From Staphylococcus phage AH12, in sequence record OR455461.1: a stretch of 64,000 bases of DNA; one strand, 5' to 3'. Positions within the stretch are counted from its first letter, which is position 1. Each line of letters starts with the position of its first letter. Position numbers and translations under genes: made by a program. A model generated the notes under the pieces. It did no database searches. It was not told where the DNA came from and was given only the letters and a program-made list of their open reading frames with translations. Below, piece after piece: positions 30,403 through 48,164 of the stretch.

Positions 30403-30422
30403 AAAAAAAAATAATAAAATTT

Positions 30423-30452: not shown

Positions 30453-30461
30453 ATTATATTT

Positions 30462-30932
30462 TTAAATAGATTTTTGATACTCATTTCTTTCTTTTACATA
30501 TAGTGTTAATTTGTAGTACATTATATCTAATATAATATTTGGTAATTCTTCATTATCATAAACTTTATAGAGTTTTTTCTTAAAATCTTCAGATATATAA
30601 CTCATGTATCTATTATAAACATCTTCCAATATTGTATTCTTTCTTTGTTCCGTAATACTTACATTAGAAAATTTCATAGATGGATTTTCTAAATATACAT
30701 CTAGATATATTTCTTCTATTGTTATATCAAAAGTAGGTTTTAAGAAGTTATCAATAGAATAATCTAAATCATCAATAATACTTTTACCATCAAATTTATC
30801 TTCCATATCTTTTACTTTATATTGGAGTTGATTAACATTTTTTAAGCTTTGTTTATACTTATAATAATAATGTCCTATGAATATACCTAGAAGTATACAT
30901 ATAAATATTAAAGCTGTAACTAAAAACCACAT
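30462..30932 (-). CDS. membrane-anchored protein
   Basis: N-terminal TM helix MWFLVTALIFICILLGIFIGHYYY. Confidence 0.5.
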   Translation of the reverse strand: MWFLVTALIFICILLGIFIGHYYYKYKQSLKNVNQLQYKVKDMEDKFDGKSIIDDLDYSIDNFLKPTFDITIEEIYLDVYLENPSMKFSNVSITEQRKNTILEDVYNRYMSYISEDFKKKLYKVYDNEELPNIILDIMYYKLTLYVKERNEYQKSI

Positions 30933-34618: not shown

Positions 34619-35311
34619 ATGAAATCTATGCAAATGCCAAAAGTAGATAAAAAAGACCTGCCAAAATTAATAGAAACAATAGAGTTAAATGTAGATGAAA
34701 CTAAAAAATTTGATATGTACAATACTGAAGATGAAATCAAGTCTGAAGAGACTTTTAATAAATATGTAGAAAAAATAATTAGAAGCTCATTTGAATATAA
34801 ATCATTTATTAAAGCTTTGAAAACTGAAATGGATCTAACTAAATGTAAATTTATTCCAGAGGTAGATATAAATGATGATAAAAAGCTTACTATTGAGATG
34901 CATCACTATCCACTTTCATTGTACGACATCGTTTCTAGTTATCGTGAAAAATTAAAAACTAATTATGAATATAAACAGTCATATGAAAGTTTTACTGTAG
35001 CAGAAGATGTTATTAAAATGCATTTTGAAGGTAATATAGGTATTGTACCATTATCATATACTGCACATGAGTTAGCTCATAATGGTGATCTGTTTATACC
35101 ATTAAATGAAGAATTTGTTTTTGGTAATTTTGAAGGTCTTTTTGATCAGATTGAGTTAGAAGCTCCTTTAGAAAATAAAATAGAAGCAGTTAAGAAAATG
35201 ACTAAGAAATATGAAGAAGATCCGTCTCTATATGAGTCAGAGGTTCTTGATAAAGTTAAAACTGAAATAAAAATGAAAAATGAAGTTAAACCAAATAAGA
35301 TAATACAATAA
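34619..35311 (+). CDS. hypothetical protein
   Basis: 230-aa ORF. Confidence 0.5.
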   Translation: MKSMQMPKVDKKDLPKLIETIELNVDETKKFDMYNTEDEIKSEETFNKYVEKIIRSSFEYKSFIKALKTEMDLTKCKFIPEVDINDDKKLTIEMHHYPLSLYDIVSSYREKLKTNYEYKQSYESFTVAEDVIKMHFEGNIGIVPLSYTAHELAHNGDLFIPLNEEFVFGNFEGLFDQIELEAPLENKIEAVKKMTKKYEEDPSLYESEVLDKVKTEIKMKNEVKPNKIIQ

Positions 35312-35327
35312 AAAAAATAATAAAATT

Positions 35328-35355
35328 CCCCTAACCTATTAATTTAGGTTAGGGG
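35328..35355. terminator. palindromic terminator element variant (CCCCTAACCTA ttaatt TAGGTTAGGGG)
   Basis: Same flanks (A-run, ATAATAAAAT ... ATATATTTTTAA) as the copies at 30423 and 58843. Stem carries compensatory substitutions. Confidence 0.6.
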
Positions 35356-35367
35356 ATATATTTTTAA

Positions 35368-37626
35368 TCATTCAAATATAAAATTAGTTGAACCTGTATC
35401 ATATACTTTATTTATATAAGTTTTATTTTTATCAATCTTATGTCTTATATAACTATCATTACTTGTACCTTTTAAGAAAGTCTTTTCAATAGGTAATTCA
35501 TTACCTACTTTATACATTCCAAATTTCTCAAATTTATAACATGTATATGAATCAGATTTTACATTAAAAGTTAGACTTGGAAATATCTTTTTAATTTTAA
35601 TTAAATCTGCGTCTGTATTTAAAAGTGAAATAAAATTATGTGATACATTAGTCTTATTATTAAAAGAAAATGCACAAATAATATAACCTTTATAATAAAG
35701 AGCGAAGAAGTCAGAATCTTTCCCATAAAAGTCTTCTGTTGAATGATTTTCAAAGAAATCTTTAAATGTAAAGAATCCCATAGATTTAATTTTTATATCA
35801 CCATAATCTAATACAGAATAATCATCTTTAAATAGTAACAATTGATGTAAGAATTTAGCATAATTCTTACCATCAATTCTTTTAGTTTCATTACGGATAT
35901 CATCATCAAATAAATTAAGAAGATGGTACCCTTTTTCTTTAAGTTCATTGTATTTCTTAAGTTGATGATATTTAGCATTTATATCAGATTTAGTTTCATT
36001 GGAATGATATTTAACTCCATTAACTTCAATAGCCAATTTATACTTTTCAGAGAGTATATCAATTTCTTTACCATCTAACAAATCTCTATTCTGTCTTTCT
36101 ATATCAAAACCTAAATATTTCATTTCATCAGATACTTTTGATTCAGCAATAGAAGATTTTCCATTACTACATGACGGACAATTAATACCTTTTTCTATTA
36201 AATCATTTGCATTTATTTTAAATTCACCATGGTCTTTACATATTACTATTGATCTTTCATATTTATCGTTAGGTCTAAATTTACTCATATTATATTTATC
36301 TTTACCATGTTTAATATTTGCAAGTGTTTGATATACTTCAGTCTTTTCTTCTTCAGTATAATCAAAGTTATTAAGATTTTTAATCTTAGTATTAAGTGAC
36401 TTTATACGTTTATACTCTTTTAATTCCTGAACAGAATATTTTCTCTTATTCTTTATTTTTGGTATTGATACTGATACTGAAACTATTTCTTTTTGATCTT
36501 CATTTGAATCTTTAACTTTATCTTTAACTTTATCTTTAACTTTATCTTTAACTTTATCTTTAATATTATCCTTAACTTTATCAATATCAAAATTATTAGA
36601 GATTTCTCTTTCTATATTTTCTTTCTTCATATTCTTTTTAATTTTCGGTGTTTTCTTTATACCTTTAAGTAATTTCTCAGTTTCTTCTTCACGTTTCTTT
36701 TTATTATTCTCTACGATTTTTTCCCAGTCTTTATCTATACTAAGTTTTTCTTCTTCACATTTAGGACAAGCTAATTTTTTATCAAATAACATTTCGTGTA
36801 TAGATGTTTTAAATTCACCATGTTTTTCACATATAATTGGTTGAATATCTTTTTCGTTAATAGGTCTAAATTTAGAAAAATCATAGTTTGTATTATTAGC
36901 TTTATTTAGAGCTAAATCATAAATATGGTTTTTCTCATCTTCTGTATAATCTTTAGTCAATTCTAAAAATAAATCAGGATCTATGTCTTTTAAATTATTA
37001 AAGATATTTTCAGTAGTTGCAACTTCTCCATCTTTCTTACAACCTGGACAGCCATCAAGATTATTTATAAGAAAATTTTTAACTGAACTTTTAAAGCTAC
37101 CATGTTTTTCACAGACTATATTTTGTTTAGTATTTATACTGTTCGGTTTAAAATTAGATACATCATAAGGAGAATATAGTCCATATTTAGCTATTGTAAT
37201 ATTATAGAAGAATAAATATTTTTCTTCTTTACTTTTATTCTTTAAATATCTAACTTTATCTTTCATTTTAGTAGAGCTATTTAAGAAAAATGTATAAGGT
37301 TCTAAAAATTCATTAGGATCTTCTACCATAGGAGATTCAAGTCGCTTAGTTCTTTCTTTATTTTTTAAAAATTTCTCAGCGTTAACTTTATTTTCATTTT
37401 CTCCTGATTCAATTATTCTTAAACAGCTTTCAAAATAATTATCGAACCATTCTTTACTTTTAGTATATTTAATCATTCTTATTTTAAAATCTTCAGATAT
37501 TTTTCCTTTATATGTTACTTTTACTTTATCTTCATTTATTTGATAATCTTTATCATTATCTATATTAAATGTATAGTCATTACCTAATTTTTCTTTAAAG
37601 CTTTCTCTTAATTTTTTACCTAACAT
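35368..37626 (-). CDS. homing-endonuclease-like protein: three CxxHG...CPxC zinc-ribbon modules, KDKV tandem repeat, Vsr/DUF559-like nuclease domain
   Basis: Repeated CEKHG(S/E)FK ... CP(G/K/S)C modules three times. LAIEVNGVKYHS motif shared with the other HE-like ORFs. Confidence 0.5.
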   Translation of the reverse strand: MLGKKLRESFKEKLGNDYTFNIDNDKDYQINEDKVKVTYKGKISEDFKIRMIKYTKSKEWFDNYFESCLRIIESGENENKVNAEKFLKNKERTKRLESPMVEDPNEFLEPYTFFLNSSTKMKDKVRYLKNKSKEEKYLFFYNITIAKYGLYSPYDVSNFKPNSINTKQNIVCEKHGSFKSSVKNFLINNLDGCPGCKKDGEVATTENIFNNLKDIDPDLFLELTKDYTEDEKNHIYDLALNKANNTNYDFSKFRPINEKDIQPIICEKHGEFKTSIHEMLFDKKLACPKCEEEKLSIDKDWEKIVENNKKKREEETEKLLKGIKKTPKIKKNMKKENIEREISNNFDIDKVKDNIKDKVKDKVKDKVKDKVKDSNEDQKEIVSVSVSIPKIKNKRKYSVQELKEYKRIKSLNTKIKNLNNFDYTEEEKTEVYQTLANIKHGKDKYNMSKFRPNDKYERSIVICKDHGEFKINANDLIEKGINCPSCSNGKSSIAESKVSDEMKYLGFDIERQNRDLLDGKEIDILSEKYKLAIEVNGVKYHSNETKSDINAKYHQLKKYNELKEKGYHLLNLFDDDIRNETKRIDGKNYAKFLHQLLLFKDDYSVLDYGDIKIKSMGFFTFKDFFENHSTEDFYGKDSDFFALYYKGYIICAFSFNNKTNVSHNFISLLNTDADLIKIKKIFPSLTFNVKSDSYTCYKFEKFGMYKVGNELPIEKTFLKGTSNDSYIRHKIDKNKTYINKVYDTGSTNFIFE
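36501..36575. repeat. 12-bp coding tandem repeat (CTTTATCTTTAA x ~6) encoding (KDKV)n
   Basis: Direct tandem repeats visible in the sequence, inside 35368..37626. Confidence 0.7.
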
Positions 37627-37680
37627 ATCATGTTCATCTCCATATTATAATATTAAGATTATATTTTAATAATCTCAAAT

Positions 37681-37698
37681 TTATAATATATATTTAAA
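37681..37698 (-). promoter_or_regulatory. class-A motif TTTAAATATATATTATAA (minus strand)
   Basis: About 55 nt upstream of the HE-like gene start at 37626. Confidence 0.35.
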
Positions 37699-37714
37699 AC
37701 GTAAAATAAAATAA

Positions 37715-37744
37715 TCCCAATATCTAATTTAATAGATATTGGGA
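37715..37744. terminator. palindromic element variant (TCCCAATATCTA atttaa TAGATATTGGGA)
   Basis: 12-bp stem, same family. Confidence 0.45.
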
Positions 37745-37758
37745 AATATGTATAAATT

Positions 37759-37806
37759 AACCCTAACCTCTTCGACTAATTCAAAATCAATCTGTAGGTT
37801 AGGGTT
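37759..37806. other. long-range hairpin AACCCTAACCT ... AGGTTAGGGTT with 26-nt loop
   Basis: 11-bp stem. Stem sequence related to the 35328 variant. Confidence 0.4.
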
Positions 37807-38180
37807 AATGTTACTTTTACGAGAAAAGTATAAAGTTGCTTTAATAATTTTTTATATCCTATAAAGCATAAGAAGGATTAAAGAAACCAATATATGCATG
37901 GAACATATTAGGAATCTTATAGTGATATTTTAATAGTCTAGTTTTTCTTATATTAGGAACTAAAACTAGAAAACCTAAAGTGTATTAAAGTCAGATACTT
38001 ATCACAAATTAATGTAAAATAAGTCCTCTTTAATACTTCTTTTTTAATACTTTTTTACAACTAAAGATATGCCTTAACTTTAGTTGAATCTAATAAATTA
38101 AGTTTGGCATATCACTTAATTTATATTTTATTTATAGCAGGTCTGCAGCCAAGCTATAAGGATGATTAATCCTATAGGGT

Positions 38181-38265
38181 TGTTCCTAATGAGATTCGAA
38201 CTCATAACCTACAGATAAATTTTAATTCATAAATCTGTACGCTCTGACCATTGAGCTATAGGAAC
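38181..38265 (-). tRNA. tRNA-like gene with aberrant anticodon arm (16-20 nt loop); isotype not assignable
   Basis: Canonical acceptor stem (GTTCCTA/TAGGAAC), D-arm GCTC-AATGGTCA-GAGC and T-arm ATGAG-TTCGAAT-CTCAT. The anticodon stem TACAGAT/ATCTGTA encloses a 16-nt loop. Confidence 0.45.
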
Positions 38266-38625
38266 ATAGAAATTTAAAAAAAAATTAAAAGAGTACATTT
38301 ATCATCTATGCACTCTTTTAAGTAAATAAATATATAATAATATCTATTAATTTTTAATTATACGTAAGGAGGCGTATGGATTTCTATTTAAAACCATGAC
38401 ATATTAAAAATAGAAACAAGAGAAACCAAAGAAACATTTTTAAACCAACAACGAGTGACAAAGTAAGTTATAATAGAATTTAATCTATTATATTTTTTAG
38501 TTAAATCAAAAACTAAAAAAAATCTATAATAATTTGACGAGAATCATTATAGATTTATACTATATAGTTAATTAATATTTTTAAATAAAATTTTTTTAAT
38601 AAATAGGAATTTTAGACCAAAAAAA

Positions 38626-38695
38626 AGCTTATCCGAGGGATCGAACCCCGGACACATGATGAAAATCATTGCTCTACCAACTGAGCTAGATAAAC
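38626..38695 (-). tRNA. tRNA gene (short anticodon arm: 4-bp stem and 6-nt loop; isotype uncertain), followed by T7 run
   Basis: Acceptor stem GTTTATC/GATAAGC, D-arm GCTC-AGTTGGTA-GAGC, T-arm CGGGG-TTCGATC-CCTCG. The anticodon region is ATGA-TTTTCA-TCAT. Confidence 0.5.
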
Positions 38696-38742
38696 TTTCT
38701 TCATTATTATAATATATGTTTATATTTCACTATATTACGCTT

Positions 38743-38792
38743 TTAATAAATATAATCTTCTATATCAATTTCATTTTGTTTAATTGTCATAT
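38743..38792 (-). repeat. 50-bp duplicate of the beta-prime gene 3' end (encodes MTIKQNEIDIEDYIY*), differing from copy 40063-40112 only at 3 wobble positions
   Basis: Direct comparison of the two 50-mers: identical except for ata/att, gac/gat and atc/ata, all synonymous. Confidence 0.7.
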
Positions 38793-40027
38793 ATTCCTGA
38801 ATTATGATAATACAATTTTCTTTTATTATCAAAAATTTTCATGGGTTCTTTGATTTCTATTTTATCTTTCATTTTTAAATAATGACTATATTTCATATTA
38901 TCTAAAGAATTTGTTTTTACTTCTTTTTTGATAATATTTTCTAATTTTTCTTTTAAATTATAATTTTCATTCTCATATAAAAATACAGTAGAAAATTTAT
39001 TTTCTAAAAGAAATAGAGCTTTTTCTTGATGATAATATTTATCTTTAAATATTTCTGAATGCCAGTAAGCTCCATTACATTCGATAGCTATTTTTTCTTT
39101 AATATCATCAATATATAAAATTATATCAATTTCTCTTTTACCAATAAATTTATTATTTTCAATATGATAACTATAATTTTCGTTGTCTAAAATTTCTTTT
39201 AATTCATCCAATACATTAATTTCAAATAATGAACGTTGTTTAGAATTACATTTACAACCTCTAGGACGATATCTATCATAATTTATATAATCTTTAAAAA
39301 TAGTATTACATTTATTACATCTAAATGAATATATAAATTCTGAATTTATACCTTTAAATTCATCATAAGTGTTTAAAATGTCTATATCATATTTTTTTAA
39401 TAAATTCTTTAAATTATAATAAGTTTTATTTTTTCTAATTTTATTTAATTTTTCTTTTATGGTGTCATTTTTCATAGGATTGTCTACACCATATCTATTG
39501 ATAAAAGATTCTTTTATTATATTTGACATATTAGGTATTTCATAAATATTATTAGCATCAAATTTATTTTTTATTTGATCTTTAATATTTATGAAATTCC
39601 CATTATTTTTTAAAGTATTATGTGATTTAGAAGATATTACTTTATTTTTCATAGGATTGTCTACACCATATTTATCAATAAAAGCTTTCTTTCTTTTAAT
39701 ATTAAAATCTTCTATTTTATTCATATTGCTTGTTCCATACTTATCTTTTAAAGTTTTTCTTCCTTTTTCATATTTTTCAGGATCTTTCATAGAACAACTT
39801 CTAGAACAATATACTCCTAATTTATGTTTATTTTTTACAAATTTAACTTTATTTTTTCTACAATACTTACAGTAAATTACAGAATTTATATCATTTCTTA
39901 TATAGTACATTCTTTCAGATAAATTTACATCTTTAAATTCATTTAAAAAATCAGTGTATTTAATAATATCATTTTTATATTTATTTAAAGCAGGTCCTTT
40001 TATTTTCTTAATTTGTTCTAATTGCAT
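38780..40027 (-). CDS. homing-endonuclease-like protein with three (K/R)YGVDNPMKN repeats and a Vsr/DUF559-like nuclease domain
   Basis: AIECNGAYWHS motif. Repeated DKYGVDNPMKN modules. Its stop codon lies inside the duplicated 50-mer. Confidence 0.5.
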   Translation of the reverse strand: MQLEQIKKIKGPALNKYKNDIIKYTDFLNEFKDVNLSERMYYIRNDINSVIYCKYCRKNKVKFVKNKHKLGVYCSRSCSMKDPEKYEKGRKTLKDKYGTSNMNKIEDFNIKRKKAFIDKYGVDNPMKNKVISSKSHNTLKNNGNFINIKDQIKNKFDANNIYEIPNMSNIIKESFINRYGVDNPMKNDTIKEKLNKIRKNKTYYNLKNLLKKYDIDILNTYDEFKGINSEFIYSFRCNKCNTIFKDYINYDRYRPRGCKCNSKQRSLFEINVLDELKEILDNENYSYHIENNKFIGKREIDIILYIDDIKEKIAIECNGAYWHSEIFKDKYYHQEKALFLLENKFSTVFLYENENYNLKEKLENIIKKEVKTNSLDNMKYSHYLKMKDKIEIKEPMKIFDNKRKLYYHNSGIYDN

Positions 40028-40047
40028 ATTATCACCCTTTCTAAAAT

Positions 40048-40064
40048 GATAATATATATTTATT
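40048..40064 (-). promoter_or_regulatory. class-A-like motif AATAAATATATATTATC (minus strand)
   Basis: 20 nt upstream of the 40027 start. Overlaps the beta-prime stop. Confidence 0.3.
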
Positions 40065-40458
40065 AATAAATATAATCTTCGATGTCTATTTCATTTTGTT
40101 TAATTGTCATATCATGGAAAGACTTCATAGAGCTTGTTACAATTGCTTGAGCTACCTGATTGACTAATAAACCAATATTTTCTATACCTAATTTGTAAGG
40201 GAGTTCTCCTGCACATTTACTACAGATATCTTCACTTGCACAATACATAGGACTTCTGAAGTTCAATACTTTCCCAATATGCTCATCTACATTTGAAGTA
40301 GTTAACAGTGTTAATTGACCTTTTCTTCCTGAATTATCTTCAAAATATCTATAAAGTAAAAGATTCGCATTATCTTTAGTTAAAGTTAATTTTAATGTAT
40401 GTTTTGTTCTACAATCAGAACCTTGTTTATCTAATACAGTTGTTTGGAAAGCAGACAT
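40063..40458 (-). CDS. multisubunit RNAP beta-prime-like subunit, distal C-terminal exon
   Basis: RSPMYCASEDICSKCAG (compare RSPLTCE..GVCAKCYG) and GLLVNQVAQAIVTSSMKSFH (compare [21 protein letters not shown]). The reading frame is open upstream to 40479. Confidence 0.65.
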   Translation of the reverse strand: MSAFQTTVLDKQGSDCRTKHTLKLTLTKDNANLLLYRYFEDNSGRKGQLTLLTTSNVDEHIGKVLNFRSPMYCASEDICSKCAGELPYKLGIENIGLLVNQVAQAIVTSSMKSFHDMTIKQNEIDIEDYIY

Positions 40459-40482
40459 AAGTTTTTTAGCTTGATCATTTTA

Positions 40483-40603
40483 TTATCTATATTTTATTAT
40501 AGATTAGACTATATCTTATGAATTTAATCATTTCTATATTTAGTCGTTGAACAACTTAATAAAGTTGATGCTAGTTAGTTTTTAACATTCTAGCAATTAA
40601 TAG
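40483..40603 (-). mobile_element. group I intron-like element B (P TTAATTGCTAG, Q CTAGCATC, R GTTCAACGACTAAAT, S GATATAGTCT)
   Basis: All four core elements present in order on the minus strand. The P/Q pairing GCTAG:CTAGC covaries relative to GCTGA:TCAGC in the other four copies. Confidence 0.5.
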
Positions 40604-40644
40604 AATTTATTGTGAGCATCTAATTTACCCACCTTCTTGAGTCA

Positions 40645-40816
40645 TTTATGTTAATCTATATTAATTTAATATAGATCAGACTATATCAAAAACTCTTTAT
40701 GAGTTTAATTATATTTAGTCGTTGAACAATCATTCTGATTGATGCTGATTAAGTTTATCTCTTCTCAGCAATTAATAATTTTTCTATTATTACATTACTA
40801 TAATAAAGGGCATTCA
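40645..40816 (-). mobile_element. group I intron-like element A, with 5' region ATGCCCTTTATTATAGTAATGTAATAATAGAAAAAT shared with the intron at 45210
   Basis: P, Q, R and S elements in order (rc of 40764-40775, 40741-40752, 40713-40727, 40678-40688). The upstream exon ends ...GGTATATGA. Confidence 0.5.
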
Positions 40817-41617
40817 TATACCTAAAGCACGTCCAGCTGAACCAGCAGTCATAATGTCTCCAAACATATATAGTTCTTCTGGATCAATTCCATCAGCTAA
40901 AGAACTCTTAGCAATACGTATTTTACTAGGATCAGCGAAGTTTTTATTTGCTCCACGTATTAATGCAGTTAACTTGAAGTTATTTCCAAAACTACCTCTT
41001 GATCCACTATCATAAATATCAAGGTCTGCTAAACCTTCTAATTCTTCTTTACTTAACTTAATTAATTCTTTTTCAATAGCACTAATAGCATTCAATTCTT
41101 CACCAGGAGTATTTAATGCTTTACCATATTTCTCTAGTAATTCTTCTTTCTTTTGTTTAACTTTATCAGGAGCAACCATCATTGTAGTTGTCAAACTAGA
41201 ATTAATAAATCCTGCTATAGAGAAACCAAGCCATTGAAGTTTATCAATATACATATTCATATCTTTAGTTGTAATAACATCATTAAGTAATAAACTAGAT
41301 AACTCAGATTGTAGATTTCCTACACCTGATCCTCCCATATCTTTATTCATATATCCTATAATAGGTCCTATTTTATTGTCTAATATAAATTTATTAAATA
41401 TATATCTTCCAACTGTTGTTCTTTCATCTTTACTATTATAAACTAAATCTTTTTTAAGTTTAAATCTATCGCTAGGATTAAACATTGGTTGTGTATTTTG
41501 TCTAAATGCAAATAATTCTTTAAGTTTATCAAGAGTAATATCTTCTTTTTTTATACTTAATAAAGTTGATACTTCTTTCTCAGATAAATCTTTTTTATCA
41601 TAAGTCATATTAACCAA
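40814..41617 (-). CDS. multisubunit RNAP beta-prime-like subunit, proximal C-terminal exon
   Basis: DSGSRGSFGNNFKLTALIRG (compare [21 protein letters not shown]) and TAGSAGRALG (compare STHGARKGLADT). Confidence 0.65.
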   Translation of the reverse strand: MVNMTYDKKDLSEKEVSTLLSIKKEDITLDKLKELFAFRQNTQPMFNPSDRFKLKKDLVYNSKDERTTVGRYIFNKFILDNKIGPIIGYMNKDMGGSGVGNLQSELSSLLLNDVITTKDMNMYIDKLQWLGFSIAGFINSSLTTTMMVAPDKVKQKKEELLEKYGKALNTPGEELNAISAIEKELIKLSKEELEGLADLDIYDSGSRGSFGNNFKLTALIRGANKNFADPSKIRIAKSSLADGIDPEELYMFGDIMTAGSAGRALGI

Positions 41618-41648
41618 TTTAATTTCACTTCTTTCATATATTATTTGT

Positions 41649-41661
41649 AATATTTGAATGT
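41649..41661 (-). promoter_or_regulatory. candidate late promoter AACA-N6-TAT (minus strand) for the beta-prime C gene
   Basis: Plus ATAtttgaaTGTT is the reverse complement of AACAttcaaaTAT, 33 nt upstream of the 41617 start. Confidence 0.45.
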
Positions 41662-41886
41662 TATCGTCAATTTTATATTTTTGTAATTTATAAAAATATC
41701 TCGTAAAAAATTTGAAAACGCCCGGAATATTATATTTATATAATAATATAATTATTATAATATATTAAAATATTTAAATATTTTAATATATAAAAAATAT
41801 AATATTAGAGGGGGTATATTTAGATTTTGATTATATCAAAATCTAATAAATTATTTCTTCTTAAATTACATAAGAAAGATAAAGAA

Positions 41887-41899
41887 AACAAGTACATAT
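41887..41899 (+). promoter_or_regulatory. candidate late promoter AACA-N6-TAT for the beta gene
   Basis: AACAagtacaTAT 36 nt upstream of the GTG 41934 start. Divergent from the 41649 motif across a ~300-bp AT-rich region. Confidence 0.45.
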
Positions 41900-41933
41900 A
41901 TAAATTTATTAAATGAAAGGAATTGAATAATAA

Positions 41934-44900
41934 GTGAAGTATCTTAATAGATTAAAGAATTTAAAATTCTATTCAATTTCAGGATATAAGATTAAAGCTA
42001 TAGATGAAAATATTAAGGATCAAAAGAAAAACCAATTAATAATTTATAAAGGTTTTAAAGAAAATTCATTTATAGAATTCTTAAATAGTGGTATATTATA
42101 TTATCAAAATTTCAAGAATATTTATACTCCTAGAATATATAGAACAGCAAATAGAAAATCAAGATTAATTACTAATATTTCAGATTATCAACAAGAAATT
42201 AAAAGTAAATCAATTAAATCTTATAGAGTTGAAAGAAATGAGAAATTATTTAAAGGAAGAAACTATATAGTTGATTCAAGTAAATTTATCAATCTTGAAG
42301 ATAAATCTTTAATGACTAAGAATTTTAAAACTGTATCAGATTCAATTAAAAATACTTATAATAATTTAAATAATCCAGAAGAATATGAAAATTTATTATA
42401 TGTAATTAATGTAGATGGATACAATAAATCTTCTCAAGAAGCTATTAGACCAAATACAAAAGATTTTATGTCAAGTTTATTTATGATGATTAAGAATCAG
42501 GAAGAATTACCTCATAAAGAAAATCAAAATGTAGTAGCTTTATTTATTTCTATTGAGAACGGTATAATGTTTAAATTTGATTTTAAAGATTATAATAAAT
42601 TCAATAATAGATTAAGACAAAGATTAAGAAGAGCTATTGATTTAAATACACAACAAATAGATACAGATGAAATTTCTAATGTTGAAGATGATGATAATAC
42701 AGAAGCTATAGATTCAACTATTAAAAAGAAATCATTTAGCAATGTTAAAGATATTGATCCAGTTGAATTACAAGATAAGAATGAAGATGAAGTTAATCAG
42801 GATATTGAAGATTCTAAGATGGAAAAAATATCTAAGAAAATAGATGATACATTAAGATATATTAAATCTAATGATAATATTGATATGGATATTAATGATG
42901 AATATAATATTGCAATGATAATTGAAAAAGAATTAAACAATAATAATGATCTTATTGATATTGATGAAGATACATTATACAATGATGTACTTGATAAGAA
43001 TGATTCATTTAAATCAATTAAAAGAGATATTAAAAATAAATCATATATTGGAGACACTGCATTAAAGAATTCTAAAAAGATATTATCACTAGCTAAAAAT
43101 CAAGATGAATATCTTGAAAAATTAGAAGATTTTAGTTTCTCTGAAGATAGTATTATTGATAGAGAAATTAATGAAAATGTCAATAGTATTAATGATGAAG
43201 CAATAAACAATGTATCTTCAAATGATTTTGACTTATCTTATATGAAAAAGACATTTAATAAAGACTTTGTAAATATTATGAAGAGTTTTAATGATAAGGA
43301 AGAAATACCAGTATTCATTAACAAAATGAATGTAGAAGATAATTCAGATTCTCAATCATTAAAGAATACTGTAAAAGTTCAATTTAAGAGTCCTGATGGA
43401 ATTAACCATAATGTAAAATTTGATGTACCTAAAATTATTGATGGTAAATATTTAAAATTAAATGGTGGTAAAAAGGTTCTAACTAAACAATTAATGATGT
43501 ATCCTATTGTTAAATATAGACCAGATACAGTTTGGATTACAACTAATTATAATAAATTTATCATTGAAAAATTTGGTACTAAAGAGAATTCTGAAACTGA
43601 ATGGCTTAAAAAAGTTATTGAAGATAAACAAGTACTAGAATACATTAAAGATAAAAATGATATTAATATTCAAAAAGGTAACTCATCTTTAATTAATAAA
43701 GAATATTTAACTTCTGTGTTGTATAATAATTTATCTAAAAATATATTAAGATTCTCTAAAGATGATTTGATAATTGATTTTAATCAAAGAAATCTTAAAA
43801 AAGTTATTTCAGAAAGTAAAACTTTAAGTGAAATTGATTATGATAAAGATAAATACTATCCTATCGGTTATAGTTCAAACAAATCTAAATTAATATTGTC
43901 AAATACTACAGAATCTATTATTTTTAAAGCTACTAAAAGTAATATAGAATCTATGAATATTAATATTACAGATTATATTATTGAACAACTTGAAGATAAT
44001 ATTGATTTTAGTCTAATAGATAAAAAATTCAGTAAAAATATTCAAGCTAGTAAAACAATGGCATTTTCTCGTGTTAAAATTACTAATAAATTAATTCCTA
44101 CAATAGTATTATTAGGTTTCTATAAAGGTTTAACTAGTATTCTTGATCTTTATGAAGTTGATTATAAGTTTGTTGAAGAAAATGAAAGAATAACTATTAA
44201 AGATAAGAAGAATAAAATTAAATTCCAAAATGGTTATCTTATTTATTCAACAGATAAATTAAGATATGATTTATTATTATCAGGATTAAATACTATTCCT
44301 ACTTCACAATATGACTTTGAAGAATTTAATAGTGAAACACCTTACTTAGAATACTTTAATGATAAGTTCTATAGTCGTAATGTTGGTAAAGGAATTAAAA
44401 ATGCATTAGATTTAGCAATGGATCCTATTACAGAAGATGTATTAAGAGATTTAAAATTACCTGAAACTATGGTTGAGTTATTACTCTTAGCTAATACCAT
44501 GCTAGAAGATGTAACTGCTAGAGAACACAATGACATGGGAATATATCGTGTACGTGGTCCAGAACAAGTTAATGCTTTAATGTATAAAATGATTGCAAAT
44601 GCATATAAAGAATATTCTGACTCTTACAATAATAAGAATCCTAAGAATATTTCAGTTAAACAAGACCAATTAATTAAAACTATTATGGAACAACCTACTG
44701 TAGATGAAGTATCTGATCTTAATCCATCTTTAGAGATTGATAAGATGACTTCAGTAACTTTTAAAGGTCCAGCAGGACGTAATAATGAACAATCATATGA
44801 ACCTGATATTCGTTCATATAGTGAAAGTATGCAAGGCGTATTAGGAATATCTAGTCCTGATAGTAATAAAATTGGGGTAGTTAGACAGCTTTCATATAAT

Positions 44901-45050
44901 TCATTAATTAAATCTACTAGAGGTTATACTGATGGCGGTAAAAAAGATGCTAATGATACATCTCTATACACTCCATTAGAATTACTTAACCCTTATTCTA
45001 GTAGACATGCCGATAATCAAACATGGATAGTCGGCTTAAAAACTATTTAA
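41934..45050 (+). CDS. multisubunit RNAP beta-like subunit, exon 1
   Basis: C-terminal KGPAGRNNEQSYEPDIRSYS ... SPDSNKIGVVRQLSYNS matches [25 protein letters not shown] ... TPEGPNIGLINSLS. The stop TAA is the first triplet of the P element. Confidence 0.65.
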   Translation: MKYLNRLKNLKFYSISGYKIKAIDENIKDQKKNQLIIYKGFKENSFIEFLNSGILYYQNFKNIYTPRIYRTANRKSRLITNISDYQQEIKSKSIKSYRVERNEKLFKGRNYIVDSSKFINLEDKSLMTKNFKTVSDSIKNTYNNLNNPEEYENLLYVINVDGYNKSSQEAIRPNTKDFMSSLFMMIKNQEELPHKENQNVVALFISIENGIMFKFDFKDYNKFNNRLRQRLRRAIDLNTQQIDTDEISNVEDDDNTEAIDSTIKKKSFSNVKDIDPVELQDKNEDEVNQDIEDSKMEKISKKIDDTLRYIKSNDNIDMDINDEYNIAMIIEKELNNNNDLIDIDEDTLYNDVLDKNDSFKSIKRDIKNKSYIGDTALKNSKKILSLAKNQDEYLEKLEDFSFSEDSIIDREINENVNSINDEAINNVSSNDFDLSYMKKTFNKDFVNIMKSFNDKEEIPVFINKMNVEDNSDSQSLKNTVKVQFKSPDGINHNVKFDVPKIIDGKYLKLNGGKKVLTKQLMMYPIVKYRPDTVWITTNYNKFIIEKFGTKENSETEWLKKVIEDKQVLEYIKDKNDINIQKGNSSLINKEYLTSVLYNNLSKNILRFSKDDLIIDFNQRNLKKVISESKTLSEIDYDKDKYYPIGYSSNKSKLILSNTTESIIFKATKSNIESMNINITDYIIEQLEDNIDFSLIDKKFSKNIQASKTMAFSRVKITNKLIPTIVLLGFYKGLTSILDLYEVDYKFVEENERITIKDKKNKIKFQNGYLIYSTDKLRYDLLLSGLNTIPTSQYDFEEFNSETPYLEYFNDKFYSRNVGKGIKNALDLAMDPITEDVLRDLKLPETMVELLLLANTMLEDVTAREHNDMGIYRVRGPEQVNALMYKMIANAYKEYSDSYNNKNPKNISVKQDQLIKTIMEQPTVDEVSDLNPSLEIDKMTSVTFKGPAGRNNEQSYEPDIRSYSESMQGVLGISSPDSNKIGVVRQLSYNSLIKSTRGYTDGGKKDANDTSLYTPLELLNPYSSRHADNQTWIVGLKTI

Positions 45051-45145
45051 TTGCTGAAATTACTTTAAAGTTAATCAGCATCAATCAAATTGTTCAACGA
45101 CTAAATAATAGATACTAATTATATAATTAGTAATGATATAGTCTC
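45048..45145 (+). mobile_element. group I intron-like element 1 (P 45048, Q 45071, R 45092, S 45135)
   Basis: TAATTGCTGAAA ... TTAATCAGCATC ... GTTCAACGACTAAAT ... GATATAGTCT in order. About 100 nt. Confidence 0.45.
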
Positions 45146-45209
45146 AACTATGTATAAAGTATATAGAAATAAGATAATGTCTCCACGTATTGGAATGACT
45201 GGTATATGA
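45141..45209 (+). CDS. putative micro-exon (VSTMYKVYRNKIMSPRIGMTGI)
   Basis: Open frame between elements 1 and 2. NKIMSP loosely resembles NRALMG of beta. Ends GGTATATGA, exactly as the beta-prime exon before element A does. Confidence 0.3.
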   Translation, partial: VSTMYKVYRNKIMSPRIGMTGI

Positions 45210-45410
45210 ATGCCCTTTATTATAGTAATATAATAATAGAAAAATCTTTAATTGCTGAGAAAATAATAATTAAGTTAATCAGCATCAATCAAATTGTTCA
45301 ACGACTAAATAAGATTATACCTAAACGGTATTTGATATAGTCTCAGCTTTAATTTATTTTAAAGAAGTTCATTAAGAACTAATACACAATAAACAAAGTG
45401 TATTAAGATA
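45210..45410 (+). mobile_element. group I intron-like element 2 (P 45249, Q 45272, R 45293, S 45334) with shared 5' region
   Basis: ATGCCCTTTATTATAGTAATATAATAATAGAAAAAT followed by P, Q, R and S in order. Confidence 0.45.
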
Positions 45411-45865
45411 ATCTGACTCAAGCCAAGCACGTAATTCCAACAAAAACTAATAGTAAACCATTAGTTGGATCTGGTGTTGATAAATCTTTAGCTTATCAAT
45501 TATCAGATACATTTGCTTTTAAAGCTAAACAAGATGGTAAAGTATTAAAAATTAACGAGAAAACTGGTTTAATGACAGTAGAATATATCAATGGTGAAAA
45601 AGATATTGTTGATATATCTGAAAAATTAGCCAAAAACTCTAACTCAGGTTTTTATCAATCTAATAAACTTGATCCACAATTTAATGTAGATGACACTTTT
45701 AATAAAGGTCAAATACTTGCTAAAAATAATAATTTCTTTGCTGGATCCGGTAAAGATAATGATATTCAATTTACTTCAGGTAAATTATCTAAAGTATCTG
45801 TAGCTAGCTCATATGGTATTATAAATGCCTTTCATTATAGTAATGTAATGTCAAAAAATTATTAA
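45407..45865 (+). CDS. RNAP beta-like subunit, exon 3
   Basis: NLTQAKHVIPTKTNSKPLVGSGVDKS ... KAKQDGKVLKI matches [23 protein letters not shown] ... AKRGGVVQYV. Track ORF 45572..45865 is the ATG-limited part of this open frame. Confidence 0.55.
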   Translation, partial: DNLTQAKHVIPTKTNSKPLVGSGVDKSLAYQLSDTFAFKAKQDGKVLKINEKTGLMTVEYINGEKDIVDISEKLAKNSNSGFYQSNKLDPQFNVDDTFNKGQILAKNNNFFAGSGKDNDIQFTSGKLSKVSVASSYGIINAFHYSNVMSKNY

Positions 45866-45992
45866 TTGCTGAGAAATATTAAATTAATCAGCATCTCTAC
45901 ATTTATAGAGTTCAACGACTAAATATGATTATTCATTAATACTAATGAATTTGATATAGTCTAATCTATTATAAAAATATAATAGCTAATAT
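45866..45992 (+). mobile_element. group I intron-like element 3 (~127 nt; P4/P5, P6, P7, P8 and P9 hairpins assignable)
   Basis: TAATTGCTGAG ... TTAATCAGCATC, CTCTA/TAGAG hairpin, GTTCAACGACTAAAT, ATTCATTA/TAATGAAT hairpin, GATATAGTCT, CTATTATA/TATAATAG hairpin. Confidence 0.5.
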
Positions 45993-45994
45993 AA

Positions 45995-46756
45995 ATGACT
46001 TATGAAGATAGTTCTATTATTTCTAGTAGTATGTCTGAAGCAATGTCTACTAAAGTTACTATGAAGAAAACAGTAAATATTCCATCAAACACAAATATTC
46101 AATATATAGTTAAAGAAGGTCAGAAAGTACGTACAGGTGATCCTTTAATGATATTTGAAACTTCATTTGATGAAGAAGGTATTGGTTCTTTATTAGATAA
46201 AATCGGTAGTGAATTTGAACAAGATATTCAAGATATAGCTAATCGAGCTGTTAGAAGTAAATATACAGGTAATATTAAAAAGATTAATATTTATTATAAT
46301 GATGATATTGAAAATATGACTGATAGTTTAGCTAAATTAGTTAATAATTACATTAAAAAATCAAATGATAAATATAAAGAATATAAATCTGGAGTTAAAA
46401 ATAATAAAGAAACTTTACCTGGTATTGATGTAGATATTGCAGCTGTAGAGAAAATTAATACAGAGAAAATTAAAGGAGAAAAAGTTGACGGAGTTCTTAT
46501 TGAAATCTTCACTGAATATGAAGATGATATGAGTGTTGGAGATAAAATTAGTTTCTACGGAGCTTGTAAAACTGTAGTTGCTGATGTAACTCCTCCAAAT
46601 GAATCACCTTATTCTGAATATAGATCTGATGAAGAAGTTGAAGCTGTATTCTCTCCATTAAGTATTGTCTCTCGTATGACAGTTGATATTTATATGATGT
46701 TATTCACAAATAAAGCTTTAATAGAATTAAAACGTAAAGTAAAAGATATGGTATAA
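45995..46756 (+). CDS. RNAP beta-like subunit, exon 4
   Basis: EGQKVRTGDPLM (compare GEPVERGDVLADG) and GDKISFYGACKTVVADVTPP ... SPLSIVSRMTV (compare GDKMAGRHGNKGVISKINP ... NPLGVPSRMNIGQ). Confidence 0.6.
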   Translation: MTYEDSSIISSSMSEAMSTKVTMKKTVNIPSNTNIQYIVKEGQKVRTGDPLMIFETSFDEEGIGSLLDKIGSEFEQDIQDIANRAVRSKYTGNIKKINIYYNDDIENMTDSLAKLVNNYIKKSNDKYKEYKSGVKNNKETLPGIDVDIAAVEKINTEKIKGEKVDGVLIEIFTEYEDDMSVGDKISFYGACKTVVADVTPPNESPYSEYRSDEEVEAVFSPLSIVSRMTVDIYMMLFTNKALIELKRKVKDMV

Positions 46757-46846: not shown

Positions 46847-48109
46847 ATGAATTTGGAATCATTGGAAGAATCATTAGATAAAGAATTTAATTTAACTAAT
46901 GAAGAATTAGAACGTAAGGTAGATACTGATAAAGAAGAGCCTATTTGTGAGGATTGTGGTTCTAAAAATTTATCTCTTAACGAATCAAATCAATTAGTAT
47001 GTGAAGATTGTGGTTCTGAGAACAGTAAAGTAGTCAAAGAAGAATTATTAACTGAAGGAATTAGTGAATTCTTTGCTAAACATGATGTTAAGAAAATAAC
47101 TAAAAAAGCAATTAAAAGAGGTGCTACTAAAGTTGTAGTTAAAGAAATTGCAGATTTAGATATGATTGAAAAACTTAAGAAAGATAGAAGAATCAAAAAG
47201 TTACTACCATTAATAGGTGTAGTTGGTATGGCAATAAATAAGAAAAGTCCAGCTCAGATCGTAGCAAATATCGCAATTATTGGGTTGGGTGCAGCACATA
47301 GTGAAATATCTTCTAAAACTGAAGCAGGTAAAGATAAAGGATTAACAATTACTTTCACTAATGAGGAAAAAGAACTTGTTCAGTCAATTGTTTTTACAAC
47401 CACTGGATTAGACTTTAATAAAGCTGATGTAAAGAAAACTATTAAATCTTATATTGATAAGAAAGATAAAGAATTAATTGTAGAAAATATGAATAAATTA
47501 AATGAGCTAGATGGTTTGATGGAAGATATTTATATTCAAGAAGGTAAAAAATTAGATAAAGCTAAAAAAGTGGCTAGAAAAATTTTTGTGGGATTAACTC
47601 CTGAAGAAATTAAAGAAAAATTTGCTATACGTGTAGCTAAAAAGAAATATAATATTGAAGTTAAAAAAGGCTATAAGATAAATTATTCTGACGCTAAATT
47701 GTTTACACATGCAACTACACGTAAGGATTCACATACTATAGATTACGAATTAAGTTTAGTATTTTCTTTTACTAAACCTAATGGTAAGAAAAGTTTCTTG
47801 GATAGAAGCGTTTTCATTTATAATCGTTTCTCAACAATGCAAGAAGCTGTATCATTCCAAAATAAACATGGAAAAGATTTATTAAAAATATTTAAAACAA
47901 CTAAAGCAGATAAAAAACCTAAGAAATCTAAATCAGTTAATGAAGGCATGGAAGAATTAGGTATTAATGAAGATTTTGAAGACAAATTATTTGAATATTT
48001 AGAAGGCGTTACAGAGCAAATCTTATCTGAAGAAAATAAAGAAGAACAACAAACTAATGAAGATATTACATCTTTAGAAGAATCTTTAGATAAAGAATTC
48101 AGTTTATAA
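46847..48109 (+). CDS. zinc-ribbon protein with terminal LEESLDKEF repeats
   Basis: CEDCGSKNLSLNESNQLVCEDCGS. The N- and C-termini repeat (S/T)LEESLDKEF(N/S)L. Paralogous to part of 49542..51458. Confidence 0.55.
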   Translation: MNLESLEESLDKEFNLTNEELERKVDTDKEEPICEDCGSKNLSLNESNQLVCEDCGSENSKVVKEELLTEGISEFFAKHDVKKITKKAIKRGATKVVVKEIADLDMIEKLKKDRRIKKLLPLIGVVGMAINKKSPAQIVANIAIIGLGAAHSEISSKTEAGKDKGLTITFTNEEKELVQSIVFTTTGLDFNKADVKKTIKSYIDKKDKELIVENMNKLNELDGLMEDIYIQEGKKLDKAKKVARKIFVGLTPEEIKEKFAIRVAKKKYNIEVKKGYKINYSDAKLFTHATTRKDSHTIDYELSLVFSFTKPNGKKSFLDRSVFIYNRFSTMQEAVSFQNKHGKDLLKIFKTTKADKKPKKSKSVNEGMEELGINEDFEDKLFEYLEGVTEQILSEENKEEQQTNEDITSLEESLDKEFSL

Positions 48110-48115
48110 TATTTA

Positions 48116-48145
48116 TCCCAATACCTAAATTAATAGGTATTGGGA
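48116..48145. terminator. palindromic terminator element (inverted orientation; loop aattaa)
   Basis: TCCCAATACCTA aattaa TAGGTATTGGGA. Confidence 0.6.
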
Positions 48146-48164
48146 TTTTATTAAATTTCAAGTT

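What the first reader, a model, noticed from the sequence alone, without database searches (positions are those of the whole stretch)
38743..40112. Homing-endonuclease cassette flanked by a synonymously recoded 50-bp duplicate of the beta-prime gene 3' end
The last 16 codons of the beta-prime gene (MTIKQNEIDIEDYIY plus stop, 40063-40112) are repeated 1.27 kb downstream at 38743-38792. The two copies differ only at three consecutive third-codon positions. An HE-like ORF (Vsr/DUF559-like nuclease, YGVDNPMKN repeats) lies exactly between them.

Wobble-only divergence means both copies evolved as coding sequence. This is the signature expected when an HE cassette moves in together with a cleavage-resistant version of its target flank, leaving the displaced original behind. 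The cluster of differences (GAAATAGACATCGAAGAT versus GAAATTGATATAGAAGAT) would mark the HE recognition site.
Basis: seen in the sequence. Interest (0 to 1): 0.75.

Follow-up and report, generated by a model that had tools for sequence, protein, structure and literature searches.

The report
Truncated homing-endonuclease insertion duplicating a gene end
A selfish nuclease gene has inserted just after a Staphylococcus jumbo phage's RNA polymerase beta-prime gene, leaving a second 50-base copy of the gene's end; the pattern is real but a one-off, of a kind known from fungal mitochondria, and the nuclease gene is itself cut short at the junction.

Summary
Bases 40063-40112 and 38743-38792 are a 50-nt direct repeat, 47/50 identical. 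All three differences are third-codon positions of consecutive codons. A 415-aa nuclease ORF lies between the copies.

The window is an AR9/PBS1-like Staphylococcus jumbo phage. All six relatives I aligned (PB50, Machias, S6, LY01, Madawaska, SA1) have one copy and no insert. PB50 and Machias show a clean empty site.

The ORF belongs to the Hef-like / DUF7487 homing-endonuclease family with a Vsr-like nuclease core. Its best fold match is the I-Bth0305I catalytic domain. It has its own AR9-type early promoter motif and ribosome-binding site.

- Every allele at the three sites also occurs in endonuclease-less relatives.
- The ORF is 3'-truncated: all 55 aligned homologues run about 140 aa further. 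Its last three codons and stop lie inside the downstream copy.

I read this as a one-sided, partly illegitimate recombination event, not a purpose-built resistant flank. No second genome carries the cassette.

Both endonuclease-less clade members read GATATC, while the two copies read GACATC and GATATA.

I file it as a new member of a known kind, of modest interest.

The parts
40063..40112 (-). Copy 1 of the 50-nt repeat. It is the functional 3' end of the virion-type RNA polymerase beta-prime (mid-domain) gene: 2 nt, then the last 15 codons (MTIKQNEIDIEDYIY), then TAA.
   Evidence: D13. The PHROG 2962 'RNA polymerase beta subunit' profile is matched to its last position, 310-432 of 433. Removing both introns conceptually gives a 1227-nt CDS, the same length as the intron-less S6 gene.
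40049..40061 (-). AAATATATATTAT, an exact match to the AR9 early (virion RNA polymerase) promoter element. It starts one base after the beta-prime stop codon and is the left end of the insert.
   Evidence: The AR9 consensus is AAATATATATTAT-(6N)-G (PMC5312081). The window has 7 such motifs, all upstream of genes. Six have G at 6N+1; this one has A, then G.
40031..40042 (-). Shine-Dalgarno-like AGAAAGGGTGAT, ahead of the endonuclease ATG at 40025-40027.
   Evidence: Read directly from the sequence. That it would pair with the 16S rRNA 3' end rests on general knowledge; this was not tested.
38780..40027 (-). Endonuclease ORF of 415 aa. It has an N-terminal zinc-ribbon, DUF7487 repeats (YGVDNPMKN twice), a second zinc-ribbon and a Vsr-like PD-(D/E)xK nuclease core. 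It retains only the first ~60 residues of the family's ~200-residue C-terminal domain.
38993..39232 (-). Nuclease core, about residues 266-345 (...EIDIILY...IAIECNGAYWHS...YYHQEK...).
   Evidence: D301, E316, G319, Y332, H333 and K336 are invariant in the 56-sequence alignment, and E269, E299, H323 and S324 are conserved in at least 90% of sequences. The best PDB fold match is 3r3p_B, the I-Bth0305I catalytic domain.
38792..38793 (-). Right-hand junction. Endonuclease-specific sequence ends at ...AATTCAGGAAT (38793) and copy 2 begins at ATATGACA (38792). This is an illegitimate join inside the endonuclease gene.
   Evidence: Homologues continue a median of 140 aa past this point. Model confidence is below 50 for residues 377-415.
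38743..38792 (-). Copy 2 of the 50-nt repeat, a relic of the beta-prime 3' end. It is non-coding for beta-prime and supplies the endonuclease's last three codons and stop in another frame. Empty-site sequence follows it directly.
38625..38742 (-). Resident downstream flank: an early-promoter-like motif (AAACATATATTAT-6N-G) and a tRNA-like gene. In HE-less PB50 and Machias this flank follows the single beta-prime end directly.

Best explanation
A free-standing homing-endonuclease gene sits at the 3' end of the beta-prime (mid-domain) gene of the phage's virion-type RNA polymerase.

Shown:
- The insert is 1270 nt plus one 50-nt copy. It is absent from all six sequenced relatives I aligned.
- It begins with a phage early-promoter element and a ribosome-binding site.
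- It encodes a Hef-like/DUF7487 protein with an intact Vsr-like nuclease core.
- The protein lacks about 140 residues of the family's C-terminal domain.
- The reading frame runs into the downstream repeat copy and stops there.

Inferred mechanism:
- The donor was an unsampled phage of the same clade. It carried a full-length endonuclease gene directly after its beta-prime stop codon.
- A double-strand break in an endonuclease-less genome was repaired from this donor.
- On the left, repair was by homology within beta-prime. It copied the donor's gene end (copy 1), promoter and endonuclease gene.
- On the right, the broken end still carried the recipient's last 50 nt of beta-prime. It joined illegitimately inside the endonuclease gene.
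- A single event of this kind explains four things: the duplication, the two different wobble haplotypes, the truncation, and the empty-site sequence directly after copy 2.

Consequences:
- Beta-prime stays intact, so the insertion is silent.
- Copy 2 is a relic.
- It is unknown whether the truncated enzyme still cuts.
For: - Clean presence/absence: PB50 and Machias align colinearly, and their single 50-mer matches both window copies (alignment). Each of the four more distant relatives also has a single copy of the beta-prime end.
- PB50 (T,T,C) and Machias (A,T,C) cannot be deletion products of the window's two copies (A,C,C upstream; T,T,A downstream). Such a product would take its 3' part from copy 2 (by inference).
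- Endonuclease identity: DUF7487 at 4.8e-10; PHROG 3339 'homing endonuclease' at 4e-26; tblastn hits are annotated Hef-like homing endonucleases such as F-LimVIII, CP81 hef-4 and RaK2; catalytic columns are invariant; the top PDB fold hit is I-Bth0305I, probability 1.0, TM 0.64 on the target.
- Truncation: the PHROG profile is matched only over 40-355 of 536 positions. All 55 homologues extend 63-155 aa (median 140) beyond the ORF's end. Annotated family members are 569-596 aa. Residues 377-415 have pLDDT below 50 in a model with mean 85. The stop codon lies inside copy 2.
- Own expression signals: an exact AR9 early-promoter element one base after the beta-prime stop.
- Precedent: one-sided homing in T4 gives illegitimate junctions at microhomology with extensive degradation (PMC2988022).
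- The flanks nearest the insert are PB50-like, and copy 2 matches PB50 at two of three sites. This weakly fits copy 2 being the resident copy.
Against: - The donor with a full-length gene has not been found. No relative above about 34% protein identity exists in any collection searched.
- The lineage assignment of the two copies rests on 2-3 informative sites and is not significant.
- No cleavage data exist. The break may not have been made by this enzyme.
- The promoter's +1 G is displaced by one base relative to the other six motifs.
- Both copies have lost the GATATC present in both HE-less clade members. The rival resistance model predicts this and mine does not.
Confidence: 0.6

Rival explanations
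1. The mobile unit is the endonuclease gene plus a synonymously recoded, cleavage-resistant beta-prime end. It replaces the native end, which stays behind. The three clustered wobble differences mark the recognition site.
For: - All differences are synonymous and lie in three consecutive codons.
- HE-less PB50 and Machias both read GATATC there, whereas copy 1 reads GACATC and copy 2 reads GATATA. Both copies in the HE-carrying genome would therefore be immune if the target is centred on that hexamer.
- The same architecture is documented for endonuclease ORFs in fungal mitochondria: Allomyces atp6, and Glomus atp6, atp9, cox2 and nad3. The Glomus atp9 case involves about 51 nt (PMC3630166).
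Against: - Site 1 is polymorphic between the two HE-less clade members. Every allele of both copies occurs in HE-less relatives.
- The background private-substitution rate of about 2% already predicts about one change per 50 nt. Adjacency of the two private changes has roughly a 1-in-8 chance.
- The endonuclease gene is truncated at the junction and borrows its stop from copy 2. This is not expected of a cassette selected to move as a unit.
- The cassette occurs in one genome only.
- Seven homologous endonuclease loci show no flanking gene-end duplication.
Confidence: 0.2
2. The duplication arose in place. The endonuclease fragment was captured at a break as filler DNA, and the resident 50 nt were copied on both sides, so the copies were initially identical. 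They diverged later by mutation or by short conversion patches from co-infecting relatives.
For: - The beta-prime region is a dense mosaic of PB50-like and Machias-like substitutions, showing frequent recombination.
- The endonuclease fragment is truncated, like captured filler DNA.
- Both copies carry the clade-specific ending EDYIY* rather than the ESYIE* of more distant relatives.
Against: - Three differences, all at wobble positions, need either three synonymous hits in copy 1 or very short conversion patches. Homology to HE-less partners ends 18-25 nt from the variable sites.
- The intact promoter, ribosome-binding site and complete nuclease core suggest a functional gene copied from its start rather than a random fragment.
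Confidence: 0.1
3. The duplication comes from a transposon target-site duplication or from integrase-mediated site-specific integration that restores a gene end.
For: The only evidence is that a direct repeat flanks an insert.
Against: - The insert has no transposase or integrase. Its only ORF of 100 aa or more is the nuclease, and the single shorter ORF (94 aa, opposite strand, inside the nuclease gene) was not searched.
- The repeat finder's list of the 25 longest inverted-repeat pairs in 36000-42000 contains none that brackets the insert.
- A 50-nt non-identical repeat is unlike a target-site duplication.
- The right junction lies inside the nuclease gene.
Confidence: 0.02

Closest known systems
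Mobile endonuclease ORFs (mORFs) of fungal mitochondria that create hybrid genes with a duplicated C-terminus: Allomyces macrogynus atp6; Glomus sp. atp6, atp9, cox2 and nad3; Rhizopus atp9; Mortierella cox2 (PMC3630166)
   Same: - The order is the same: gene with a functional end, then the endonuclease ORF, then a redundant second copy of the gene end.
- The two ends differ mainly by synonymous changes.
- Close relatives have a single end.
- The scale is similar to Glomus atp9, which has about 51-52 nt copies.
   Different: - The host is a phage rather than an organelle.
- The endonuclease family is different: Vsr-like/DUF7487, not LAGLIDADG or GIY-YIG.
- Here the copies differ by only 3 nt, so foreign versus native origin cannot be assigned.
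- The endonuclease ORF is truncated at the downstream copy.
- The ORF has its own promoter and is not fused in frame to the host gene.
Free-standing homing endonuclease genes of T4-like phages (seg, mob, hef; PMC2988022). This includes 'Hef-like' genes such as F-LimVIII, CP81 hef-4 and RaK2 ORF158.
   Same: - It lies between conserved genes and has its own promoter.
- It is present or absent among close relatives.
- It belongs to the same protein family as the Hef-like annotations.
- It sits next to an essential conserved gene.
   Different: - Seven homologous loci checked have no flanking gene-end duplication. Four of those loci are annotated, and their proteins are full length, 569-596 aa.
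- This one is 415 aa, and its activity is untested.
I-Bth0305I and the Vsr-like (EDxHD) homing endonuclease family (PDB 3R3P; family described with the 'fractured genes', PMC2677866)
   Same: It is the best structural match of the predicted nuclease core. It has a PD-(D/E)xK/Vsr-like fold with conserved acidic and histidine residues.
   Different: Only the ~100-residue catalytic domain matches, at 22% identity and Foldseek E = 0.012. The DNA-binding part (DUF7487 repeats, zinc ribbons) and the genomic setting differ.
One-sided, illegitimate double-strand-break repair during intron homing in phage T4 (Parker et al. 1999, as summarised in PMC2988022)
   Same: Repair is homologous on one side and joins at microhomology on the other after nucleolytic degradation. 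It was proposed as the route by which mobile elements reach new sites.
   Different: That was an experimental system with engineered limited homology. Here the event is only inferred from the junction anatomy.

Membership tests
Free-standing phage homing endonuclease gene | Presence/absence polymorphism at one locus among close relatives, with a clean empty site | tested here: met
   PB50 and Machias are colinear, with a single 50-mer followed directly by the downstream flank. Each of the four further relatives also has a single copy of the beta-prime end.
Free-standing phage homing endonuclease gene | Encodes a nuclease homologous to known homing endonucleases | tested here: met
   PHROG 3339 at 4e-26. 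Hef-like annotated homologues. The top fold hit is I-Bth0305I.
Free-standing phage homing endonuclease gene | Own expression signals outside any intron or intein | tested here: met
   An exact AR9-type early promoter element and a Shine-Dalgarno-like sequence precede the ATG. Promoter activity was not measured.
Free-standing phage homing endonuclease gene | Cleaves the endonuclease-less allele and is copied into it with flanking markers | not testable with these tools
   This needs enzyme assays and mixed infections. No excess of private substitutions next to the insert was seen.
Vsr-like / Hef-like (DUF7487) endonuclease family | DUF7487 repeats above Pfam's curated threshold | tested here: met
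   40.1 bits against a cutoff of 27.
Vsr-like / Hef-like (DUF7487) endonuclease family | Conserved catalytic core of the PD-(D/E)xK/Vsr-like nuclease | tested here: met
   D301, E316, G319, Y332, H333 and K336 are invariant; E269, E299, H323 and S324 are conserved in at least 90% of 56 sequences. Pfam MTES_1575 scores only 19.8 bits against a cutoff of 38.2.
Vsr-like / Hef-like (DUF7487) endonuclease family | Full-length architecture, including the ~200-residue C-terminal domain | tested here: not met
   The ORF ends about 140 residues early, and the remnant is predicted to be disordered.
mORF-type hybrid gene with duplicated C-terminus (Allomyces atp6 type) | Order is functional gene end, endonuclease ORF, then redundant second gene end, with the upstream end in frame and complete | tested here: met
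mORF-type hybrid gene with duplicated C-terminus (Allomyces atp6 type) | The downstream (native) copy is closer to relatives than the upstream (imported) copy | tested here: inconclusive
   Copy 2 differs from PB50 by 1 nt and from Machias by 2 nt. Copy 1 differs from PB50 by 2 nt and from Machias by 1 nt. The nearest flanks are PB50-like, but the stretches are short.
mORF-type hybrid gene with duplicated C-terminus (Allomyces atp6 type) | The endonuclease cleaves the uninterrupted gene near the junction | not testable with these tools
   No biochemical data.
Transposon or integrase insertion | Recombinase gene, terminal inverted repeats, identical short target duplication | tested here: not met
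   The only ORF of 100 aa or more in the insert is the nuclease; the one shorter ORF, 94 aa on the opposite strand, was not searched. None of the 25 longest inverted-repeat pairs listed for 36000-42000 brackets the insert. The repeat is 50 nt and non-identical.

The most novel reading that the evidence does not exclude
The truncated enzyme may still be active, and the whole 3' half of beta-prime may move as one co-converting unit. That unit would comprise the two ORF-less group I introns (40475-40625 and 40643-40819), the imported gene end and the endonuclease gene.

The endonuclease would target the intron-less or endonuclease-less allele. The target would be either the intron insertion site ('collaborative homing', as for F-CphI/psbA and mobE/nrdB; PMC3984707) or the GATATC wobble cluster. 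This would be a natural snapshot of how a free-standing endonuclease, ORF-less introns and a replacement gene end become one mobile module in an essential jumbo-phage polymerase gene.
Probability: 0.1. Interest if true: 0.6.

Novelty: new member of a known kind. Interest (0 to 1): 0.3.

Why it matters
If the enzyme is active, this locus offers a compact natural test of how a free-standing endonuclease of the little-studied Hef-like/DUF7487 family finds its target.
- Three nearly identical substrates differ at known bases: the PB50/Machias end, copy 1 and copy 2.
- The setting is an essential virion RNA polymerase gene that also carries two mini group I introns.

It also shows that the 'hybrid gene with duplicated C-terminus' outcome, known from fungal mitochondria, can arise in a phage. 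The truncated junction suggests how: one-sided, partly illegitimate break repair.

For annotation, there are three practical points.
- The downstream 50-mer is a relic, not a gene.
- The 415-aa ORF is a shortened family member.
- The beta-prime gene should be joined from three exons.

Beyond that it is a single, probably recent and possibly dead-end insertion, not a new mechanism.

Tried and rejected
- Searches for a second genome with the cassette, or for a donor, all came back empty:
  - blastn and tblastn against 50,697 phage records found no endonuclease relative in any Staphylococcus phage, and none above about 30% identity anywhere;
  - exact-protein look-ups for the endonuclease and the beta-prime exon-3 product found nothing on record;
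  - the 5.8-billion-protein search gave a best identity of about 34-36%;
  - back-translated patterns in IMG/VR found three loci at 27% identity;
  - exact degenerate 48-mer scans of viral, metagenome and genome contigs gave zero hits.
- I looked for a co-conversion tract, meaning an excess of window-private substitutions next to the insert. Density is about 2% near and far, so there is no signal.
- I tried to assign resident and imported copies from flanking haplotypes. There are too few informative sites.
- I tested whether gene-end duplication is a habit of this endonuclease family. None was seen in seven homologous loci.
- I first assumed that short (~240 aa) Hef-like enzymes exist, because tblastn matches were about 700 nt long. 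The annotated genes are in fact 569-596 aa, so I dropped that argument for activity.
- The sigma-70 promoter scan was uninformative in this AT-rich DNA: 27 found against 21 expected.
- The PDB sequence search with the endonuclease gave no hit. Only the fold search did.
- The first Rfam pass over 8.6 kb missed the introns. A focused pass found them.
- Transposon and integrase explanations were rejected on anatomy.
Full report
**What the window is.** DNA searches place it in the AR9/PBS1-like Staphylococcus jumbo phages. The region 38600-41700 matches phage Machias at 96.6% and PB50 at 93.5%. It matches S6, PALS_2, DC4, LY01, Madawaska, MarsHill and SA1 at about 80-82%. In those records the gene ending at 40063 is annotated as the viral RNA polymerase beta-prime subunit, mid-domain. 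Its two large ORF products match PHROG 2962 'RNA polymerase beta subunit' over profile positions 39-294 and 310-432 of 433. The last part also matches the solved AR9 polymerase chain 7S00_D weakly, at E = 0.0027.

- The two 50-mers, 40063-40112 and 38743-38792, are 47/50 identical and spaced 1320 nt (D13). A self-BLAST of the window gives E = 3e-14.
- On the minus strand, copy 1 is AT followed by the last 15 codons and the stop of beta-prime.
- The differences are 40087/38767 A/T, 40084/38764 C/T and 40081/38761 C/A. These are the third positions of the consecutive codons Ile, Asp, Ile.
- Identity ends sharply on both sides of the 50-mer.
- Between the copies lie 1270 nt containing one ORF of 100 aa or more, 38780-40027(-), 415 aa.

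**The insert is an endonuclease gene with its own signals.**
- The protein matches Pfam DUF7487 above threshold (4.8e-10) and a PD-(D/E)xK restriction-endonuclease-like model below threshold (MTES_1575, 8.6e-4). It matches PHROG 3339 'homing endonuclease' at 4e-26.
- Its tblastn relatives, all at or below about 30% identity, are genes annotated as Hef-like homing endonucleases in Campylobacter, Dickeya, Salmonella and Klebsiella phages.
- In a 56-sequence alignment the catalytic columns D301, E316, G319, Y332, H333 and K336 are invariant.
- An AlphaFold model has mean pLDDT 85. Its best PDB match is the catalytic domain of the homing endonuclease I-Bth0305I: 3r3p_B, probability 1.0, TM-score 0.64 on the target, 22% identity, E = 0.012.
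- One base after the beta-prime stop the insert starts with AAATATATATTAT. This is the exact early-promoter element that the AR9 virion polymerase recognises (consensus AAATATATATTAT-6N-G; PMC5312081).
- The window holds seven such motifs, all upstream of genes. Six have G at 6N+1. This one has A, then G.
- A Shine-Dalgarno-like AGAAAGGGTGAT precedes the ATG.

**Relatives lacking the gene have a single copy.** PB50 and Machias are colinear with the window on both sides. Their one 50-mer aligns to both window copies and is followed directly by AAGCGTAATATA..., an early-promoter-like motif and a tRNA-like gene. The same sequence follows copy 2 in the window. S6, LY01, Madawaska and SA1 also have one copy.

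A deletion between the two window copies would take its 5' part from copy 1 (A,C,C) and its 3' part from copy 2 (T,T,A). It could not produce PB50's T,T,C or Machias's A,T,C. Those are therefore true empty sites, not excision products of this allele (inference).

**The three differences are ordinary polymorphisms.**

| Sequence | Site 1 | Site 2 | Site 3 |
|---|---|---|---|
| Copy 1 | A | C | C |
| Copy 2 | T | T | A |
| PB50 | T | T | C |
| Machias | A | T | C |
| S6 | A | T | A |
| LY01 | A | T | A |
| Madawaska | A | C | A |
| SA1 | T | T | A |

(All values.)
- Every allele of either copy occurs in an endonuclease-less phage.
- Site 1 differs between the two closest endonuclease-less phages.
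- A three-way comparison shows that the window carries about 2% private substitutions throughout this region. They sit in a dense mosaic of PB50-like and Machias-like sites. About one private change per 50 nt is therefore the background expectation.
- Wobble-only change fits two alleles that both evolved as coding sequence, but with three sites the chance value is about 1/27.
- Copy 2 is 1 nt from PB50 and 2 nt from Machias. Copy 1 is the reverse.
- The flanks closest to the insert (40153-40191 and 38606-38742) are PB50-like. This weakly favours copy 2 as the resident, but the stretches are too short to be significant.

Within the clade, both endonuclease-less phages read GATATC across sites 2 and 3. 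Copy 1 reads GACATC and copy 2 reads GATATA. If the enzyme's target were centred there, both copies in the carrier genome would be protected, which self-immunity requires. It is not statistically compelling, since adjacency of two private wobble changes has roughly a 1-in-8 chance, and it is untested.

**The endonuclease gene is cut short at the junction.**
- Endonuclease-specific sequence ends at ...AATTCAGGAAT (38793).
- The next base is the first base of copy 2. The frame reads three more codons and TAA from the duplicated beta-prime sequence.
- PHROG 3339 is matched only over positions 40-355 of 536.
- All 55 aligned homologues continue 63-155 residues (median 140) beyond the ORF's end. 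They continue through a conserved domain of which this protein keeps only about the first 60 residues.
- Annotated family members are 569-596 aa.
- Residues 377-415 are the only long low-confidence stretch of the model.
- The right-hand junction is therefore an illegitimate join inside the gene. It is not the natural end of a cassette.
- Seven homologous endonuclease loci from other phages show no flanking gene-end duplication. The duplication is not a habit of the family.

**Most likely history (inferred).**
1. An unsampled phage of the same clade carried a full-length gene directly after its beta-prime stop. Both copies encode the clade-specific ending EDYIY*, which places the donor in this clade.
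2. A break in an endonuclease-less genome was repaired from it.
3. On the left, repair by homology within beta-prime copied the donor's gene end (copy 1), promoter and endonuclease gene.
4. On the right, the end still carried the recipient's last 50 nt and joined inside the endonuclease gene.

One event of this kind accounts for the duplication, the two haplotypes, the truncation and the empty-site sequence after copy 2. Such one-sided homing, with junctions at microhomology after extensive degradation, was shown experimentally in T4 (summarised in PMC2988022).

If the break was made by this enzyme, the cut lay at or upstream of position -50, not necessarily in the wobble cluster. The window-private synonymous changes in the last 70 nt of beta-prime (40129 and 40084) would then be the candidate immunity sites.

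**Comparison with what is known.**
- The architecture, a functional gene end followed by an endonuclease ORF and a redundant gene end, is well described for mobile endonuclease ORFs in fungal mitochondria. Examples are Allomyces atp6 and Glomus atp6, atp9, cox2 and nad3. These include mostly synonymous differences between the copies and a case with about 51-nt copies (PMC3630166).
- Free-standing endonuclease genes next to essential genes are standard in T4-like phages (PMC2988022).
- My searches of the held literature did not turn up a phage example with a duplicated gene end. That is a limited search, not proof of absence.
- I therefore file this as a new member of a known kind.

**Limits.**
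- There are no cleavage or transcription data.
- The donor is unknown.
- Only one genome carries the insert.
- Whether the truncated enzyme is active is open.

**Seen in passing.** The beta-prime gene is interrupted by two compact group I introns separated by a 17-nt micro-exon. An endonuclease gene sitting just downstream of ORF-less introns recalls 'collaborative homing' (PMC3984707). I list that as the most novel reading not excluded.

Noticed in passing
window 40475-40625 and 40643-40819 (minus strand), with the micro-exon at 40626-40642: The beta-prime gene carries two tandem, ORF-less, very compact group I introns of about 151 and 177 nt, separated by a 17-nt micro-exon (ACTCAAGAAGGTGGGTA, encoding TQEGG-Y). 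Removing both conceptually restores a 1227-nt CDS, the same length as the intron-less genes of S6, Madawaska and SA1. PB50 has only the second intron; Machias has both. Rfam Intron_gpI matches each over the full model at E about 5e-5 but below the gathering score (27 bits against 50). An 8.6-kb Rfam scan missed them.
   Followed up: partly
window 45038-45343 and 45814-46007 (plus strand gene): Sequences 75-85% similar to the beta-prime introns recur in the interrupted beta subunit gene. This suggests a family of mini group I introns spread through the polymerase genes. In Machias that gene is annotated as four joined exons with a homing endonuclease nearby.
   Followed up: no
window 38178-38266 and 38625-38696 (minus strand): There are two tRNA-like genes (Rfam tRNA, 60 and 46 bits) for which ARAGORN cannot name an anticodon. 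One has a 4-6-nt anticodon loop (AUGAU-UUUC-AUCAU). The other has an elongated anticodon arm, as if it carried an insert. Machias annotates the equivalents as pseudo tRNA-Asn. Each is preceded by, or lies close to, an early-promoter-like motif.
   Followed up: partly
window 3290, 14829, 34517, 37695, 38721, 40061, 61075 (motif starts): Seven copies of the AR9 early-promoter element AAA(T/C)ATATATTAT occur, six with G exactly 6 nt downstream. The virion-polymerase promoter code of Bacillus phage AR9 therefore appears to be conserved in these Staphylococcus jumbo phages.
   Followed up: partly
window 35368-37626 (minus strand), with tandem repeats at 36493-36619: A 752-aa ORF belongs to the same endonuclease superfamily (PHROG 3339 at 4e-19; DUF723; weak DUF559). 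It has zinc-finger modules and a 12-nt tandem repeat encoding (KDKV)n. Unlike the 415-aa gene, it is conserved in PB50 and Machias.
   Followed up: no
window 7238-7308, 30396-30466, 35302-35367, 48106-48153, 58815-58885: A repeated intergenic element of about 70 nt (84-96% identical, in both orientations) sits at gene ends. It is probably a shared terminator or regulatory hairpin.
   Followed up: no
window 55290-55576 and 56203-56489: A 287-nt direct repeat (85% identical) forms the 3' parts of two adjacent ORFs (54612-55574 and 55690-56487). This looks like a tandem gene duplication unrelated to the endonuclease.
   Followed up: no
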